A DNA stretch of 31,645 nt, taken from IMG/VR virus record IMGVR_UViG_3300045988_013781; one strand, given 5' to 3'. Source of the DNA: a virus (lineage: Duplodnaviria > Heunggongvirae > Uroviricota > Caudoviricetes). Below, piece after piece: positions 24,001-30,000 of this stretch. Each line of letters starts with the position of its first letter. Position 1 is the first letter of the stretch. Position numbers: made by a program.

Positions 24001-27000
24001 ATCTTTCGGGACCACCAGGATATAAACTTTTTTCCTTGCTGTACCGGTGAAACTCCGCCATCACATCGTCAATGGTGACGCCAAGAACCATCTTGCTGTC
24101 TTTACACCACTTGATGAATTGCCCTGGCGACGGCCAGAACGGAGACTCACTGGCGCGGGCGTGGCGCATACCAGCGTTAACCTGTTCCATTGTAGTGATC
24201 CCATTCTCCAGAAACGCAAGCATCCATTGCTTACGGAATTCATTAAGTTTGTTCTGCTCCCTTATGGTCGAAACGCTTGCGGGAAATGCAGCCTGTAACT
24301 GGACAAATAGTTCATTGAAAATTCTAGCGACCTGCTCCTTTTTGCCATTGCTGTCACGCCGCTCTTCATGCACAGCAACACCATGCTCACGTAAGCGATC
24401 GTACTCATTGAGAAGTTCTGGAGTTGATTTCATCCCACACCCCTTCTATCCAGTCAGTGTTATTCCAGTCAAGCTCATCGCTTTTCCCGGCGTTTTTTGA
24501 TTTTCCCCTGATATGATTTACGTGCCTGGCGAATTTTTGTTCCCACTGAACCTGCGTGAACACTTTGCCCTCAGCCATCCAGTAATCCCGGAATGCAGCA
24601 AGTTCAGCAGGTGTAAATTCCGGTTCCGGCAGGGCCGTTCCCCACAGCGCAGCACGCCGTCGAAAATCCGGCGACGGATGCCAGCCATCGGTCATCGGAA
24701 ATTTCCCGATGGGTTCACTCAGGCCATCCAGAAATTCAGGTTCAGCCACCTGCAACGGCATACCGTTCGCTTCACTGGTCGGAGCACCCTCGCGCACGTG
24801 CGCTATGTGTGGGGTTTTATATATATCTTCCTCTTCCTCTTCCTCTGGTAACTCCTTTTGTAACGCTGTTGGCGTTACTTTTTGCGTTACTCGTTTTCGA
24901 TGCTCTGCCACTCTTCTATTCGTAAGTGCACGTTTTTTCGATGATTCTCCATTGTGTCGCTCAAAGTTTGGAAGAATTAGTTTGCCGTCATGATAAGCAA
25001 GCCATCCGACGCTAATGAGGGCGTCAGCAAATCCTGTAATAAAAGCGAGTCTATCAAGTACTCCTTTTGTAACGCTGCCAGCGTTACCGTCTATTGTTTG
25101 CTGGTCAGCCCATGCCCATATACGAACCAGCTTTCCAAGAACAGCATCTGGATCAATACCCAGAATTTCTGCTATCTGAAAAATTTCAGGTTTATCAGGA
25201 GTGATAACTTCAACCTTAATCCAGCTGCTTGCCATAGGTTTCCCCTCTTGCACTCTTTAGTGCACAAGCAAATTCATTACGATGGCGGTTGGCGCTATTC
25301 ATTGCACATTCAACACATGTTCCGTTCAGAACATACCTTTCAGAGAGATGGCCGTGACGGCACCGCTTTCCTGTGAAATAGCGATTTAACCCGGCTTTTG
25401 CGGCCTCCATTCTGGTTACTATCTTCAATTTTTCCGCCTCTTTTTGTTATTGATATTGGCTATTTTGCACAATTGGAAAATTTGATCAACCAGATTTGGT
25501 TTTTTATTACCTTTGAGGTACGAATAGATATGAAAAGACCGCCGGGTGGCGGTCTACAGAGGGTTGTGGCTGGATATCATGAGTAGAAGAAGTATGCCAG
25601 TTCTGCTTTTGAGCGCAGCCATTGTCTTGATTTACAGGCTTTAAAAAGCCCATCCATCAATACCTTACCTGGCATTTTGCGCTTACCTGTTAAGTGAGTC
25701 TGGATATAGTGACTCGTCGTTCCGGCTTCCTGTGCGAAGGCTTCACGCTCATCCGGAGTAAGTGCAAGCCAGTGCTTTTTGAAATCGAAATGTCCGTTAT
25801 CGCTCATAGCTATTGCCTGATATTTATTTCAGATAATAAATATTCACCTATAAGGTAACAAAAATCAAGGATAGTTACCCATGAGGTGCATTTACCTGTT
25901 GGGTAATATTGCTTTAAATTGAATCATCTACTGATTCATATATGAGGCGATTTTCCAGAAAATGAAAAGTATCCAGGACGTCCGCAGGCAAAATCTCAAC
26001 GACTTGATCGACCGTGAATTCAATGGTGTTCAGACGCGGATGGCTGAAAAACTTGGAACTCAGGCAAATCTGGTAAACCGCTGGGCTCTTGGCAAGAAGG
26101 TTATCGGCGACCAGGTTGCACGAAAAATTGAAGCTGCCGCCAATAAACCCCGTAACTGGCTTGATATCGATCGCTCGCTTTCTCAGGAAGGTTTTCAGCC
26201 TGTCGGCCCAAGCGACATTGGCCAGCTGGCGGCTCACAACCTGGAACGCTGGATGAGCGAAAGCCGCGACCTTTCAACGCAGGGAAAACTTCACCGCGCA
26301 TCCGGCGTCGCCCAGGTAACAATCAGCCGCCTGTTAAACAATGAGGTCAGCGTTTCCATTTCCACCCTGGAGAATGTTGCATCCGCATTTGGGCGTCACG
26401 GATATGAATTACTGATTCACCCGCACGACCCAGCGACTATCAACTATGACCGCTCGCGCTACGCATTGTTACCTGAAACAGAGAAGGCAAAGATCGAAAG
26501 TTACATTGAATTTGTCATCAACCAGAACGAAAAAAACAAACAATAAAATCATATTTTTCAGTAAGTAAGCCGCCTTCTGGCGGCTTTTTTATTGCCTATA
26601 CTATTACCTAATAGGTAATTTTTTTAACTCATATCTATTGACATCAAACCAAATACGCATAATCATTACCTCAACGGTAACAGACCGAGGTAACAAGTTA
26701 TGCAGTGGAAAATCATCAACGGTTGGTACTGCGTTACTGCATGCGGATTCATGAGCTGGAAGTTCCGCATCTTACAGGAAGGCATCAAGTGGGCTTTCGT
26801 CAGCAAAGAAGCTCGCGATGTGGCCAACGATAACGAGATATGGGAGGGCTGATAATGAACGTTAATCAGCAGAAAAATCTTCAAAAAATCATGCTGGCAT
26901 TCGACAAGGACTACCGCCTGTCAGAACAGCTATATGACCGACAAGTTGAACTGATTGAGAGCATCCGACTTCATCAACTGTCCTCAACTTTCGACGTTGT

Positions 27001-30000
27001 AACAGGCAAAGGCGTTCGTCAGGAAGTACTGGAGGCTGCTAAAGACAGCCCTGAGTTCGAAGAACTGATGGATGCCTATCGGCGAGAGGCAATGGCAATT
27101 ATCGCCCGCTGGGATCTGGCGGATCAGCTTGATGGACAGAGGGACGCGGCATGAAACCGGGAATTTATTTCGACATCAGCAACGAAGACTACCACGCCGG
27201 TGACGGCGTGAGTAAGTCGCAACTGGACATGGTTGCCAAGAATCCGGCGCTTCTTAAATGGGTTCAGGCAGCACCAGAAGACGAAGAGAAAAAGTCTGCA
27301 CTGGATATGGGAACCGCATTGCACTGTCTGCTTCTGGAGCCTGGAGAGTTCGACAAACGCTTCATTGTTTCACCGAAATTCGATCGTCGGACAAAACAAG
27401 GTAAAGCTGACGAAGAAGCATTTCTTAGTGATGTGGCGGATATGGGTATTACGGTACTTGATGTCGAGCAGTGGCGAAAACTGGAGCTGATGCGTGATAG
27501 CGCAATGGCTCACCCGGCTGCACGCTGGATGCTGGAAGCACCTGGTTACTGCGAAGCATCAATGTACTGGAACGATGAAGAGACTGGTGAGTTGTGCCGC
27601 ATTCGTCCAGACAAATGGCTGAACGAGCACAACGTGATCGTCGACGTGAAAAAGGTTGCAGATATGGACCGTTTTGCACGCCACATCGAGGAATTCCGCT
27701 ACCACGTGCAGGACGCAATGTACCGCGAAGGCGCAATGATGGTTACTGGTCAGCCGCATGGTTTTTTCTTTCTTGCCGTGAGCGAAAGCATTGATTGTGG
27801 TCGGTATCCGGTACGCGTGTTCGAGCTGGATGCGCCAGATGTCGATGCCGGGCACGCTCTGTTCCGCCGGGATCTGAATACCTATCACGAATGCCGCATC
27901 AACGATGAATGGGGCGGAGTGGAAATTATTAAACGCCCTGACTGGGCACGTAAACAGGATATGTACGTATGAGCAATGATATCGCAATCACATCACAACC
28001 AGGCGCAACTGTAGGTACTGCTGCGGCAATCTTCAGCCCGGAGGGCATGAATCAACTGGTGCGTTTCGCGGAGTTGATGTCACAAAGCAAAGCGACTGTA
28101 CCGAAACATCTTGAAGGCGAACCTGCCGATTGTCTGGCGGTGACCATGCAGGCGGCACAGTGGGGAATGAACCCTTTCGCCGTGGCGCAGAAAACGCATG
28201 TGGTAAACGGAACGTTAGGCTACGAAGCACAGTTGGTAAACGCGGTCGTATCCTCTTCCAGCCTGCTAGCGACACGCCTGAATTATCGCTGGAGCGGTGA
28301 CTGGTCGAATGTTAACGGCAAAACAGATAAATCACCGAATCTGACGGTAACTGTGTCAGCAGTTCTTAAAGGAGAAGCAGAACCCCGTGAGCTTACCATC
28401 AGTATGGCGCAAGCCGGAGTGCGTAACTCTCCATTGTGGGAACAGGATCCGCGCCAGCAGCTTGCCTATCTTTGCACGAAACGATGGGCTCGCCTGCACG
28501 CTCCTGATGTACTTCTCGGTGTTTACACCCCTGACGAATTACAGGAAACGGCACCGCGCGTTGAGCGAGACATTACTCCGCAAACGACCACTGCTGCGGG
28601 AATGAACAGTCTGATCAACGCTAAACCAGCGAAAAAGCCTGATGAGCAAACGCGTAAAGAGGATAGCCGTGATCCAGAAGAAATGCTGATGGCCTTTACC
28701 AGCGCAGCGATGAATTACAGCACTGTCTCCGAACTGGATAAGGCTTACAAATACATTGCACAAAAACTTTCAGATGATGACGAACTGCTGGCAAAAGCCA
28801 CCGACGTTTACAGCGTTCGTCGGGAAGAATTAAACGAAACATCTATGTAACCACCACCGCGGCGCCACGCGCGCCGCACTGCAACCAAGAGAGATATTTA
28901 TGAAAGGTGCATTAGGTAAGAAGGAACTCCTGGCGGTGGTGCCACTGTCATGGAGCACTATCGACCGTATGGAGCGCGCAGGGGAATTTCCTAAACGCTG
29001 GTATATCACCGATAAACGCTGCGCATGGAACCGTGATGAAGTTGAGCGTTGGCTTGATGAACGTCAGGCAGCAAGCCCGGCAGAGTTCCAGGGTAAAAAA
29101 CCTCCTGTTCAGCAACGTGTATATCGTCCTGTGAGCAACGCTGCATGAGTGCGCTGCTAAGGCACTGGAGCAAATGGTCAGGATGGTACTTATTCCTGGC
29201 CTCTGTTTCAGCATGGCTTTATCTGCTGGCATTAATTTTCAGAGAGGGTTGGATTAAGTGAGAAAGTTAAGCCGACTTGAAAAATATCACATGAACAAGG
29301 TTTCAATGCGCAGCCCTTCAAAGGTTGTTGCCGTTACTCCTGCAGCGATAGAGATCGAAAAACGCGCAATTGAAAGAGAGAAAAAAGGGCAGTTCCGCAT
29401 TGCCGCCCACCTTTGGCTTCAGTGTATGGATGTTGCTTCTGGTGATGTTGAGCGTGCAAGGATCGCGGTTCGCAGGGACCAATGTATCACAAAAGGTAAC
29501 GGCCTTCGCCGTGGCGACTATAGCGGCATAGGATGTTGTGGGGTGGTTTATGACTAAGAAATACACACTAATCTATGCAGATCCACCCTGGGTATACCGG
29601 GACAAAGCCGCAGATGGTAATCGCGGTGCCGGTTTTAAATATCCAGTTATGAGTGTGCTGGATATCTGCCGCCTTCCTGTGTGGGATTTGGCCGCTGAAA
29701 ACTGTCTGTTGGCCATGTGGTGGGTGCCAACACAACCACTCGAAGCACTAAAAGTTGTTGAAGCCTGGGGATTCCGTCTGATGACCATGAAGGGCTTCAC
29801 GTGGATAAAATGTGGTAGTCGACAACAAGATAAACTGGTTATGGGTATGGGACACATGACTCGCGCCAATAGTGAAGATTGCCTGTTTGCGGTAAAGGGA
29901 AAACTACCTACGCGCATTAATGCAGGTATCGTTCAGTCATTTACCGCACCGCGGCTTGAGCATTCAAGAAAACCAGATGTCGTTCGTGAAAAACTTGTGC

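What the first reader, a model, noticed from the sequence alone, without database searches (positions are those of the whole stretch)
26700..28850. Compact RecE-like exonuclease plus Redbeta-family annealase, preceded by two unassigned small genes
The exonuclease is only 273 aa, corresponding to just the PD-(D/E)XK nuclease domain of RecE-type enzymes, and is translationally coupled to a Redbeta/RecT-family annealase. The two genes upstream (50 aa and 99 aa) occupy the position where lambda carries host-nuclease inhibitors and kil functions, and match nothing I recognise. They are candidates for RecBCD inhibition or host interference.
Basis: partly seen in the sequence, partly recalled or inferred. 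Interest (0 to 1): 0.4.

Follow-up and report, generated by a model that had tools for sequence, protein, structure and literature searches.

The report
Phage recombination operon with Gam-like gene
This is the ordinary, already-sequenced early-left recombination operon of a phiV10/epsilon15-type temperate phage; the one new point is that its unannotated 99-aa gene looks like a distant relative of lambda Gam, the inhibitor of the host RecBCD nuclease.

Summary
Four co-directional genes lie at 26700-28850: a 50-aa ORF, a 99-aa ORF, a 273-aa RecE-type nuclease domain and a 293-aa RecT/Redbeta-superfamily annealase. The last three are joined by ATGA overlaps.

The segment is 98% identical in DNA to Uetakevirus phages (ZX5, phiv142-3, TL-2011b; 94% to phiV10). 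It occurs in 565 of 5,426 complete E. coli genomes, so the module itself is known.

The two small genes are conserved 'hypothetical' families (phiV10 gp39/gp38, epsilon15 gp37/gp36; phrog_898/856) under purifying selection.

**The 99-aa protein.** It is probably a divergent lambda Gam relative:
- Profile-profile probability is 84-90%, against a maximum score of 21 in 400 shuffles (real score 35-38).
- Gam is the top hit in a search of all PDB sequences.
- One family member hits Pfam Gam.
- It sits immediately upstream of the recombinase cassette in every context examined. In one lambdoid prophage it fills the exact KilR-[Gam]-recombinase slot.

Against full Gam-like function, the N-terminal 'plug' helix is not alignable, and these phages carry Chi at or above expectation, whereas Gam-positive lambdoids are reported to avoid it.

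**The 50-aa protein.** It matches nothing. A Kil-like role is suggested only by its position.

Verdict: a new member of a known kind, of modest interest.

The parts
25962..26546 (+). Prophage repressor (194 aa, two HTH domains, no S24 peptidase domain). Equivalent to phiV10 gp40 and ZX5 ORF21.
   Evidence: Pfam HTH_3 1.2e-9. phiV10 annotation. ZX5 ORF21 was shown by overexpression to block lytic growth (PMC9782041).
26567..26586 (+). Intrinsic terminator after the repressor gene (8-bp GC-rich stem followed by a T-run).
   Evidence: The same feature is annotated in phiV10.
26604..26618 (.). Operator-like palindrome TTACCTAATAGGTAA, upstream of the -35 hexamer.
   Evidence: The motif TTACC-N5-GGTAA occurs 8 times in the window against 0.01 expected. 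Repressor sites are annotated at the equivalent place in epsilon15.
26638..26666 (+). Sigma-70 early-left (PL-like) promoter: TTGACA, 17-nt spacer, AATCAT.
   Evidence: 10 of 12 consensus matches. The TTGACA hexamer is almost fully conserved across five phages.
26666..26680 (.). Operator-like palindrome TTACCTCAACGGTAA, abutting the -10 hexamer and covering the likely transcription start region.
26700..26852 (+). orf50: conserved 50-aa protein of unknown function (phrog_898; phiV10 gp39, epsilon15 gp37). First gene of the operon.
   Evidence: phrog_898 at 3.6e-37. The N-terminal 25 aa are almost invariant across the E. coli, Salmonella and Klebsiella members. dN/dS 0.06-0.31. No Pfam, PDB, Kil, KilR or cIII similarity.
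26855..27154 (+). orf99: acidic helical 99-aa protein (phrog_856; phiV10 gp38, epsilon15 gp36). Probable divergent member of the lambda Gam family.
   Evidence: hhalign against Gam gives 84-90% probability, with clean shuffle and reversal controls. Gam is the top PDB hit at E = 0.08. One member hits Pfam Gam at 0.0042. Reciprocal HMM hits at 1e-4 and 3e-4. pI 4.7 against 5.0 for GamS. Always sits immediately upstream of the recombinase cassette.
27151..27972 (+). RecE-type 5'-3' dsDNA exonuclease, nuclease domain only (273 aa). Catalytic residues H58, D154, D165 and K167.
   Evidence: PDB 3H4R at 3.2e-77, residues 12-268. Pfam DUF3799 at 1.4e-21. NCBIfam exonuclease VIII positions 606-873 of 877.
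27969..28850 (+). Single-strand annealing protein of the RecT/Redbeta superfamily (293 aa), on a Redbeta-leaning branch.
   Evidence: Pfam RecT at 2.1e-31. lambda Bet scores similarly in the same model. hhalign gives Bet 57% against Rac RecT 0.8%. No PDB hit.
28900..29148 (+). AlpA-family excisionase/regulator, the next gene in the same operon.
   Evidence: Pfam Phage_AlpA at 3e-5 and phrog_66.

Best explanation
The segment is the repressor-controlled early-left operon of a phiV10/epsilon15-like temperate podophage (Uetakevirus).

On induction or infection, a sigma-70 promoter flanked by two TTACC-N5-GGTAA operators transcribes orf50, orf99, the exonuclease and the annealase, then xis/alpA and further genes. 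The last three recombination genes are translationally coupled.

The 273-aa protein is a RecE-type PD-(D/E)XK 5'-3' dsDNA exonuclease. It resects DNA ends. The RecT/Redbeta-superfamily partner coats the resulting 3' single strand and anneals it to complementary DNA. Together they form a two-component 'Red/RecET-like' recombinase serving phage replication, concatemer formation and mosaic exchange.

The 99-aa protein is most likely a fast-evolving, divergent member of the lambda Gam family. By analogy it would be an acidic helical dimer that binds a host dsDNA-end nuclease (RecBCD first, possibly SbcCD) and protects phage DNA ends and recombination intermediates.

Shown here: gene structure, homology of the nuclease and the annealase, remote similarity of orf99 to Gam, and its conserved slot. 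Inferred: all biochemical activities, the target of orf99, and any role for orf50. For orf50 a Kil-like host-interference role is only a positional guess.
For: **Identity of the element**
- 98% nucleotide identity to phages ZX5, phiv142-3 and TL-2011b, and 94% to phiV10.
- Present in 565 of 5,426 E. coli genomes.
- The same gene order occurs in phiV10, TL-2011b, BUCT711, Tyrion, PAT1 and epsilon15.

**Control region**
- Terminator, promoter and operators are present.
- The operator motif occurs 8 times against 0.01 expected.

**Nuclease and annealase**
- Nuclease: 3H4R at E = 3e-77, with the RPD...DVK motif identical.
- Annealase: Pfam RecT at 2e-31.

**orf99 and Gam**
- hhalign probability is 88%, E = 3e-6, aligning orf99 residues 31-87 with GamS 33-90.
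- The result is stable with a larger profile.
- Controls: real score 35-38; reversed alignments 13-16; 400 column shuffles mean 11.3, sd 2.3, maximum 21.
- A profile search of 177,635 PDB sequences ranks Gam 5MBV/2UUZ first, at E = 0.08 and in the same register.
- Of the 14 family members scanned, one hits Pfam Gam, and that E-value (0.0042) is the lowest of any Pfam hit in the set.
- One member hits the Gam PHROG at 0.016.
- Nineteen other small lambda, P22 and Rac early-left proteins give nothing.
- Family-conserved residues coincide with Gam's: G53/G56, E67-F68-x-E70 / E71-F72-x-E74, and R77/R81.
- Length (99 vs 98 aa), helical layout and acidity match.

**Genomic context of orf99**
- It directly precedes the recombination cassette, by a 4-nt overlap wherever the coordinates are on record. 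This holds whether the cassette is RecE-like plus SSAP, YqaJ/lambda-Exo-type (L015, epsilon15), or RecT alone (L011).
- In prophage L012 the order is KilR, orf99-like, recombinase, MT-A70.
- Close mosaic relatives have KilR, Gam, RecT..., MT-A70. Their KilR is 54-59% identical and their MTase 89-95% identical to those of L012.
- orf99 is the fastest-evolving gene of the operon (45-54% identity against 68-92% for the recombinase genes), as expected for an arms-race inhibitor (PMC3784561).

**Precedent**
- Plu2934 had an even weaker Gam similarity (HHpred 71.7%) and proved to boost recombineering like Gam (PMC4381043).
Against: - The window protein itself gives no Pfam Gam hit even at E <= 10. 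The Gam link rests on profiles of low diversity (Neff 1.7-2.9).
- Only the C-terminal two thirds align. The N-terminal helix, which in Gam plugs the RecB ssDNA channel (PMC5218532), shows no detectable similarity.
- Chi (GCTGGTGG) is not avoided. Against a second-order Markov expectation the counts are 4 vs 2.2 in the window, 6 vs 3.2 in epsilon15, 8 vs 2.5 in phiV10 and 3 vs 2.9 in BUCT711. Dinucleotide shuffles of the window expect only 1.1. In the window, epsilon15 and phiV10 every site lies on one strand, where a two-strand model predicts roughly a 2:1 to 3:1 split.
- Gam- or Abc2-positive lambdoid phages are reported to avoid Chi strongly, with O/E of 0-0.3 (PMC3784561).
- No activity was tested here.
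Confidence: 0.6

Rival explanations
1. orf99 shares ancestry or fold with Gam but does not inhibit RecBCD. Instead it is a stoichiometric accessory of the phage's own exonuclease/annealase (as Arf is for P22 Erf), or it targets a different host protein. The phage would then keep RecBCD active and use its Chi sites.
For: - It is directly adjacent to, and where coordinates are on record overlaps by 4 nt, the first recombinase gene in every context examined.
- Chi is at or above expectation and lies in a single orientation in Uetakeviruses, unlike Gam-positive lambdoids (PMC3784561).
- The Gam N-terminal plug helix is not conserved: alignments start at about residue 31.
Against: - The partner exonuclease family changes (RecE-type, YqaJ-type, or none) while orf99 stays. 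A specific physical partnership with one enzyme is hard to reconcile with this.
- It replaces Gam in an otherwise near-identical KilR...MT-A70 neighbourhood.
- It evolves faster than the recombinase genes it would have to bind.
Confidence: 0.22
2. The Gam similarity is a chance match between two short acidic helical proteins. On this view orf99 is an unrelated small protein of unknown role, such as another anti-defence or regulatory factor.
For: - E-values in database-wide searches are marginal: 0.08 in PDB, and 0.004 in Pfam for one member only.
- The window protein itself gets no Pfam hit.
- Structure searches return generic helical hairpins.
- Other weak PHROG hits appear at a similar level.
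Against: - Four different searches independently rank Gam first among tens of thousands of families, all in the same register.
- Reversal and shuffle controls are far below the real score.
- The positional prior is independent of sequence and matches Gam exactly.
Confidence: 0.15
3. orf50 is a Kil-type host-interference peptide, for example a cell-division inhibitor. It would be expressed first from the early-left promoter, as a third, non-homologous occupant of the slot held by lambda Kil or KilR just upstream of gam.
For: - Its size (50 aa) and its position immediately upstream of the Gam-like gene parallel lambda kil-gam and KilR-gam arrangements.
- Purifying selection is very strong (dN/dS 0.06-0.12 within Uetakevirus), which fits a conserved host target.
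Against: - There is no sequence or profile similarity to lambda Kil, KilR, P22 Kil or cIII, nor to any Pfam or PDB entry.
- The AlphaFold model is unreliable (pLDDT 63).
- In some relatives a 320-337-aa gene separates it from orf99, so the linkage is looser.
- Position alone is weak evidence.
Confidence: 0.3

Closest known systems
Early-left (recET) region of Escherichia phage phiV10, Salmonella phage epsilon15 and other Uetakevirus phages (gp39-gp37 of phiV10; gp37-gp34 of epsilon15)
   Same: The gene order is the same: repressor, terminator, 50-aa gene, 99-aa gene, exonuclease, annealase, AlpA, PerC, methylase, then a convergent integrase. Nucleotide identity is 94-98% to the E. coli members.
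   Different: In phiV10 and several relatives the exonuclease and annealase are fused in frame into one 586-aa protein. In epsilon15 the cassette is a YqaJ/lambda-Exo-type nuclease plus a canonical RecT instead of RecE-type plus a Redbeta-like SSAP. Some relatives have extra genes between the two small ORFs.
Rac prophage RecE/RecT (E. coli K-12)
   Same: The nuclease is about 50% identical over the whole RecE catalytic domain, with identical active-site residues. It is paired with a downstream, overlapping annealase gene.
   Different: It lacks the ~600-aa N-terminal part of RecE. The annealase shows no significant BLASTP similarity to Rac RecT. The upstream genes racC, ydaE and kilR are unrelated to orf99 and orf50.
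Lambda Red operon (kil-gam-bet-exo) and lambda Gam (PF06064; PDB 2UUZ, 5MBV)
   Same: Both are repressor-controlled early-left operons with a small gene, then a ~98-aa acidic helical protein, then an SSAP/exonuclease pair. orf99 aligns to GamS residues 33-90, sharing the G, EFxE and R motifs. Downstream DUF1382 and MT-A70 neighbours are also shared with lambdoid phages.
   Different: The gene order of nuclease and annealase is reversed. The nuclease is RecE-type, not lambda-Exo-type. The similarity to Gam is below Pfam's threshold and excludes the N-terminal helix. The phage is not Chi-depleted.
Photorhabdus Plu-gamma/beta/alpha (Plu2934-2936) recombineering operon
   Same: In both, a small unannotated protein upstream of an SSAP/exonuclease pair shows only weak HHpred similarity to Gam. 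Plu2934 was shown experimentally to enhance recombineering like Gam (PMC4381043).
   Different: Plu2934's similarity was to Gam's N-terminal helix (27 residues), whereas here it is to the C-terminal two thirds. The Plu exonuclease is lambda-Exo-like (70% identical to Red-alpha).

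Membership tests
RecE / exonuclease VIII nuclease domain (PF12684 DUF3799; PDB 3H4R) | Full-length sequence match to the RecE catalytic domain | tested here: met
   phmmer E = 3.2e-77 with residues 12-268 aligned to 3H4R 5-261. Pfam DUF3799 scores 77.8 bits against a cutoff of 26.
RecE / exonuclease VIII nuclease domain (PF12684 DUF3799; PDB 3H4R) | PD-(D/E)XK catalytic residues (RecE H652, D748, D759, K761; numbering from my own knowledge of the 606-866 construct) | tested here: met
   H58, D154, D165 and K167 align to identical residues in 3H4R, in the motifs GTAxHC and RPD...DVK.
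RecE / exonuclease VIII nuclease domain (PF12684 DUF3799; PDB 3H4R) | Long N-terminal region of full-length Rac RecE (about 600 aa) | tested here: not met
Only positions 606-873 of the 877-position NCBIfam model are matched, at 308 bits against an equivalog cutoff of 1269.
RecE / exonuclease VIII nuclease domain (PF12684 DUF3799; PDB 3H4R) | 5'-3' dsDNA exonuclease activity and toroidal tetramer | not testable with these tools
   Needs biochemistry or a multimer structure.
RecT/Redbeta single-strand annealing proteins (PF03837) | Pfam model above the gathering score | tested here: met
   109.5 bits against a cutoff of 24. lambda Bet scores 115.6 bits and Rac RecT 188.9 bits in the same model.
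RecT/Redbeta single-strand annealing proteins (PF03837) | Assignment to the Redbeta branch rather than the RecT branch | tested here: inconclusive
   hhalign of a 7-sequence profile gives Bet 57%, epsilon15 RecT 6% and Rac RecT 0.8%. BLASTP gives Bet E = 0.001 and RecT E = 0.27. No PDB hit to either.
RecT/Redbeta single-strand annealing proteins (PF03837) | Gene adjacent to, and co-expressed with, a partner exonuclease | tested here: met
   ATGA overlap at 27969-27972.
Lambda Gam host-nuclease inhibitor (PF06064) | Pfam Gam model hit for the protein itself | tested here: not met
   No Pfam hit at E <= 10 for the window protein. Only one divergent family member reaches 0.0042.
Lambda Gam host-nuclease inhibitor (PF06064) | Profile-level homology to the Gam family | tested here: met
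   hhalign probability is 84-90% over 55-57 columns, with clean controls. Gam is the top PDB hit. Reciprocal HMM hits at 1e-4 and 3e-4.
Lambda Gam host-nuclease inhibitor (PF06064) | N-terminal helix H1 that plugs the RecB 3'-ssDNA channel (PMC5218532) | tested here: not met
   A helix of the right length is predicted, but no alignment covers residues 1-30.
Lambda Gam host-nuclease inhibitor (PF06064) | About 98 aa, all-helical and acidic (DNA mimic) | tested here: met
   99 aa with helices at 3-49, 56-63 and 66-98 (low confidence). pI is 4.71 with 19 acidic residues, against GamS at 4.99 with 21.
Lambda Gam host-nuclease inhibitor (PF06064) | Genomic slot: downstream of a Kil-type gene and immediately upstream of the SSAP/exonuclease cassette | tested here: met
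   L012 has KilR then orf99-like then recombinase, where L020 and L025 have KilR then Gam then recombinase.
Lambda Gam host-nuclease inhibitor (PF06064) | Chi depletion of the phage genome (a correlate reported for Gam/Abc2-positive lambdoids, PMC3784561) | tested here: not met
   O/E is 1.0-3.2 in four Uetakevirus genomes or segments.
Lambda Gam host-nuclease inhibitor (PF06064) | Binds and inhibits RecBCD as a dimer | not testable with these tools
   Needs biochemistry, genetics or multimer modelling.
Kil-type division inhibitors (lambda Kil PF06301; KilR PF27398), considered for orf50 | Sequence or profile similarity | tested here: not met
   hhalign probabilities are <= 0.5%. No Pfam hit.
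Kil-type division inhibitors (lambda Kil PF06301; KilR PF27398), considered for orf50 | Toxicity or FtsZ inhibition on expression | not testable with these tools
   Needs an expression experiment.

The most novel reading that the evidence does not exclude
The Gam-like protein (orf99 family) has kept the Gam core but replaced the RecB-plugging helix. It would therefore act on a target other than RecBCD, or modulate RecBCD rather than block it. This would explain why these phages retain single-orientation Chi sites. Alongside it, the ultra-conserved 50-aa first gene would be a new class of host-takeover peptide occupying the Kil slot.
Probability: 0.15. Interest if true: 0.55.

Novelty: new member of a known kind. 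Interest (0 to 1): 0.3.

Why it matters
The recombinase pair is routine. The useful result is a testable functional label for a 'hypothetical' family (phrog_856; epsilon15 gp36, phiV10 gp38) that is present in about 10% of complete E. coli genomes.

RecET-type operons have been said to lack a Gam equivalent (PMC4381043). If this family is a Gam-type inhibitor, that statement needs revising.

It would also offer a compact, natural three-gene cassette for recombineering: inhibitor, RecE nuclease domain and SSAP.

Finally, it would add a case in which a putative RecBCD inhibitor coexists with Chi-rich phage genomes. That bears on the reported Chi/inhibitor dichotomy in temperate phages (PMC3784561).

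Tried and rejected
**Family scans**
- Single-sequence Pfam, NCBIfam and PHROG scans of both small proteins returned only the unknown-function families phrog_898 and phrog_856.

**Structure**
- AlphaFold2 gave low-confidence models for both: orf99 at pLDDT 65 and orf50 at pLDDT 63, the latter an implausible single helix.

**Homology to other early-left proteins**
- Rac racC and ydaE, the genes upstream of recE in K-12, show no similarity.
- Nothing was found for lambda Kil, cIII, Ea10, Ral and orf60a.
- Nothing was found for P22 Abc1, Abc2, Arf, Kil, C3 and gp17.
- Nothing was found for Rac KilR, RcbA, RalR, YdaF and YdaG.
- orf99 is not related to the N-terminal part of full-length RecE.

**The orf50 N-terminus**
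- A superficial N-terminal resemblance to cIII (MQ[YW]xI..GW) was not supported by profiles.
- A transmembrane reading of the orf50 N-terminus was suggested by a weak mucolipin TM match. It was set aside because divergent homologues carry Glu or Asp within that segment.

**RNA and repeats**
- An Rfam scan and a repeat scan of 25-31.6 kb gave nothing. The RyhB 'hit' at 24.5 bits (gathering score 55) is the terminator hairpin.

**Other searches**
- The search for related loci with the divergent alignment failed because no stretch was conserved enough.
- The PDB holds no detectable relative of the annealase, even when searched with a profile.
- No canonical Gam or Abc2 exists elsewhere in the window. 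The best six-frame Gam-HMM hit is orf99 itself.

Full report
**1. What is in the sequence**

- orf50, 26700-26852
- orf99, 26855-27154
- a 273-aa exonuclease gene, 27151-27972
- a 293-aa annealase gene, 27969-28850

An upstream in-frame ATG at 26840 would make orf99 104 aa. All homologues and phrog_856 start at the 26855 Met, which has a GGGAGG Shine-Dalgarno. The orf99/exonuclease and exonuclease/annealase junctions are ATGA overlaps, and orf50 and orf99 are 2 nt apart.

**2. Where it comes from**

The 2.4-kb segment is 97-99% identical to Escherichia phages ZX5, phiv142-3, PAS61 and TL-2011b, and 94% identical to phiV10. It is about 80% identical to Salmonella, Klebsiella and Enterobacter members of the genus Uetakevirus. 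It occurs in 565 of 5,426 complete E. coli genomes.

The rest of the window carries the matching late genes on the minus strand, and the convergent integrase lies at 30395-31645.

The gene order is: repressor, terminator, 50-aa gene, 99-aa gene, exonuclease, annealase, AlpA/Xis, small membrane protein, PerC-like activator, MT-A70 methylase, DUF1382, then a convergent integrase. This is the annotated order in phiV10, TL-2011b, BUCT711, Tyrion, PAT1 and epsilon15.

GenBank already calls the pair 'putative recET'. The two small genes are 'hypothetical protein' everywhere (phiV10 gp39/gp38; epsilon15 gp37/gp36).

**3. Regulation**

The control region reads as follows:
- The repressor gene (25962-26546) ends in an intrinsic terminator (26567-26586).
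- A near-consensus sigma-70 promoter follows (TTGACA at 26638, 17-nt spacer, AATCAT).
- The promoter is bracketed by two palindromes, TTACCTAATAGGTAA (26604) and TTACCTCAACGGTAA (26666).

The motif TTACC-N5-GGTAA occurs 8 times in the window against 0.01 expected. One further copy lies in the divergent repressor/cro-like promoter region (25892). epsilon15 has repressor sites annotated at the equivalent positions.

The homologous repressor of phage ZX5 blocks lytic growth when overexpressed (PMC9782041). The four genes therefore head a repressor-controlled early-left operon, the functional analogue of lambda pL.

**4. The recombinase pair**

*The exonuclease.* The 273-aa protein aligns over residues 12-268 to the crystal structure of the RecE catalytic domain (3H4R, E = 3e-77). 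The active-site residues are identical: H58, and the RPD154 ... D165-V-K167 PD-(D/E)XK motif. It covers only positions 606-873 of the 877-position exonuclease VIII model.

*The annealase.* It scores 109 bits in Pfam RecT (PF03837). lambda Bet scores 116 bits in the same model, while true RecTs score about 190. A 7-sequence profile of the annealase matches Bet at 57% probability, against 0.8% for Rac RecT. BLASTP agrees weakly. 'Redbeta/RecT superfamily, leaning towards Redbeta' is therefore a fair label. No solved structure is detectably related.

*A cassette swap.* epsilon15 carries the opposite combination at the same place: a YqaJ/lambda-Exo-type nuclease plus a canonical RecT. The whole cassette has been swapped while the two small genes upstream stayed.

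**5. The two small genes are real and conserved**

Both families are narrow and enterobacterial. An exhaustive profile search of 1.84 billion representatives found only 31 clusters for orf99.

Selection measures:
- orf50: dN/dS is 0.06-0.31. Its first 25 codons show pS of 0.5-0.7 with pN of 0.04-0.06 within the genus.
- orf99: pN is 0.32-0.47 with saturated synonymous sites.

The DNA alignment shows mostly third-position changes within orf50 next to a diverged, indel-bearing leader. orf99 is the fastest-evolving gene of the operon, at 45-54% amino-acid identity against 68-92% for the recombinase genes.

**6. orf99 is probably a divergent Gam**

Single-sequence searches fail. A screen of the family profile against 20 small early-left proteins of lambda, P22 and Rac singled out only lambda Gam. 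Following this up gave these results:
- Profile against profile (14 orf99-family sequences vs 20 GamS-length Gam sequences): 88% probability, E = 3e-6, aligning orf99 31-87 with GamS 33-90. An 18-sequence profile gives 84%.
- Controls: the real score is 35-38. Reversed alignments score 13-16. 400 column shuffles average 11.3 (sd 2.3, maximum 21).
- An HMMER profile search of all 177,635 distinct PDB sequences puts Gam (5MBV, 2UUZ) first, at E = 0.08 and in the same register.
- Of the 14 members scanned against Pfam, one hits Gam, and its E-value (0.0042) is the lowest Pfam hit in the set. One member hits the Gam PHROG at 0.016.
- Reciprocal local HMMs give 1e-4 and about 3e-4 at a Pfam-sized Z.

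Family-conserved residues coincide: G53/G56, E67-F68-x-E70 against E71-F72-x-E74, and R77/R81. Length (99 vs 98 aa), predicted helical layout and acidity (pI 4.7 vs 5.0) also match.

**7. Context supports the same reading**

In every context recovered for divergent family members, the gene sits immediately upstream of the recombination cassette, by a 4-nt overlap wherever the coordinates are on record. This holds whatever the type of cassette:
- RecE-like plus SSAP (L010, L012, L013, L014)
- YqaJ-type nuclease (L015, epsilon15)
- RecT directly (L011)

The most telling case is prophage L012, which is lambdoid (S24 repressor, Rep_O, P). Its order is KilR, orf99-like, RecE-like, SSAP..., MT-A70. 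Canonical Gam sits in L020 and L025 as KilR, Gam, RecT-family..., with an MT-A70 methylase further downstream in L024 and L025. The L012 KilR is 54-59% identical to those of L020 and L025, and its methylase is 89-95% identical to those of L024 and L025. The orf99 family therefore occupies the Gam slot in an otherwise shared neighbourhood.

A published precedent exists. Plu2934 had an even weaker HHpred link to Gam (71.7%) and behaves like Gam in recombineering (PMC4381043).

**8. Evidence against, and limits**

- The window protein itself does not reach any Pfam threshold, and the profiles are shallow.
- The AlphaFold model is poor, and fold searches are uninformative.
- The alignment omits the N-terminal helix. 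In Gam this helix enters the RecB 3'-ssDNA channel (PMC5218532).
- Uetakeviruses are not Chi-depleted. Against a second-order Markov expectation the counts are 4 vs 2.2 in the window, 6 vs 3.2 in epsilon15, 8 vs 2.5 in phiV10 and 3 vs 2.9 in BUCT711. Dinucleotide shuffles of the window expect only 1.1.
- In the window, epsilon15 and phiV10 every Chi site lies on one strand, where a two-strand model predicts roughly a 2:1 to 3:1 split.
- Bobay et al. report that Gam- or Abc2-positive lambdoids strongly avoid Chi (O/E 0-0.3), while recombinase-positive, inhibitor-negative phages enrich it (PMC3784561).

My estimates are about 0.75 for homology to Gam and about 0.5 for RecBCD inhibition proper. 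An accessory role for the recombinase, or a different target, remains open.

**9. orf50**

Nothing beyond phrog_898 was found:
- no Pfam, PDB or PHROG relative
- no similarity to lambda Kil, KilR, P22 Kil or cIII, even with small profiles
- an unreliable structure model

Its conserved pattern is MQWK-(hairpin-like xxNG/EG/DGxY)-VTxCG-MSWKF..L.EGI.WAF..KEA. Its neutral pI (6.1) argues against a DNA mimic.

Its position parallels kil in lambda and KilR in other prophages: it is the first gene of the operon and lies just upstream of the Gam-like gene. That is the only basis for a host-interference guess, which I put at about 0.3.

**10. Verdict**

The module is nonetheless a common, already-sequenced part of a well-known phage genus. 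The added value is a testable assignment of the 99-aa family to the Gam lineage, with a Chi-related caveat. The 50-aa family stays unresolved. This is a new member of a known kind, and I score interest at about 0.3.

Noticed in passing
L001:4652-6412 (phiV10 gp37), compared with window 27151-28850: In phiV10, the exonuclease and annealase are one in-frame 586-aa fusion protein. The junction reads ...EWARKTGYVHMSNDIAN..., against a stop plus ATGA restart in the window. The O157 typing phages 9 and 10, EC.W1-9, BP9 and YDC107_2 show the same 94%-identity, two-piece match, but their junctions were not read. This could be a natural nuclease-SSAP fusion or a shared frameshift.
   Followed up: partly
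L016:30081-32012 (epsilon15 gp34-gp35), compared with window 27151-28850: The recombinase cassette downstream of the conserved 50-aa and 99-aa genes is swapped between genus members. phiV10-like phages have a RecE-type nuclease plus a Redbeta-leaning SSAP. epsilon15 has a YqaJ/lambda-Exo-type nuclease plus a canonical RecT. These pairings are 'crossed' relative to lambda (Exo + Redbeta) and Rac (RecE + RecT).
   Followed up: partly
window 160, 17198, 20766, 23543, 23605, 25892, 26604, 26666: The operator-like palindrome TTACC-N5-GGTAA occurs 8 times against 0.01 expected. Several copies lie far from the immunity region, inside or between late and accessory genes. This echoes the scattered 'repressor' binding sites annotated in epsilon15.
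   Followed up: partly
window 8441, 10243, 13711, 30774 (all minus strand): There are four Chi sites (GCTGGTGG), all in one orientation (1.1 expected from shuffles). epsilon15 shows 6 of 6 and phiV10 8 of 8 on one strand, more one-sided than a strand-specific Markov model predicts. This may be functional Chi use by a phage that also encodes its own recombinase.
   Followed up: partly
L010:3980-4993, L013:264-1244, L014:4034-4993; L004:2747-3001; L005:2867-3004: A variable insertion point lies inside the operon. Some relatives carry a 320-337-aa Glu/Ala/Arg/Lys-rich coiled-coil protein between the 50-aa and 99-aa genes. In BUCT711 an 84-aa protein, and in Tyrion a 45-aa zinc-ribbon-like protein, lies between the 99-aa gene and the exonuclease gene. 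None of these has a Pfam family.
   Followed up: no
window 25962-26546 and 25577-25807: The prophage repressor has two HTH domains and no S24 autoprotease domain. It is transcribed in the same direction as the early-left operon and is separated from it only by a terminator. Induction is therefore presumably through an antirepressor (the Bro-N protein in relatives), not RecA-mediated cleavage.
   Followed up: no
window 29145-29261, 29258-29557, 29538-30200, about 30197-30391: Downstream genes of the same operon are a 38-aa putative membrane peptide, a PerC-family transcriptional activator, an MT-A70 adenine methyltransferase and a DUF1382 protein (homologue of lambda orf63). They run convergently into the integrase gene.
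   Followed up: no
L014:3693-3845: In one relative the 50-aa gene at the first position of the operon is replaced by an unrelated 50-aa protein (MKTAHYYASSSKKFVEVKNEDGSLWFKK...). This suggests a slot for interchangeable small proteins.
   Followed up: no
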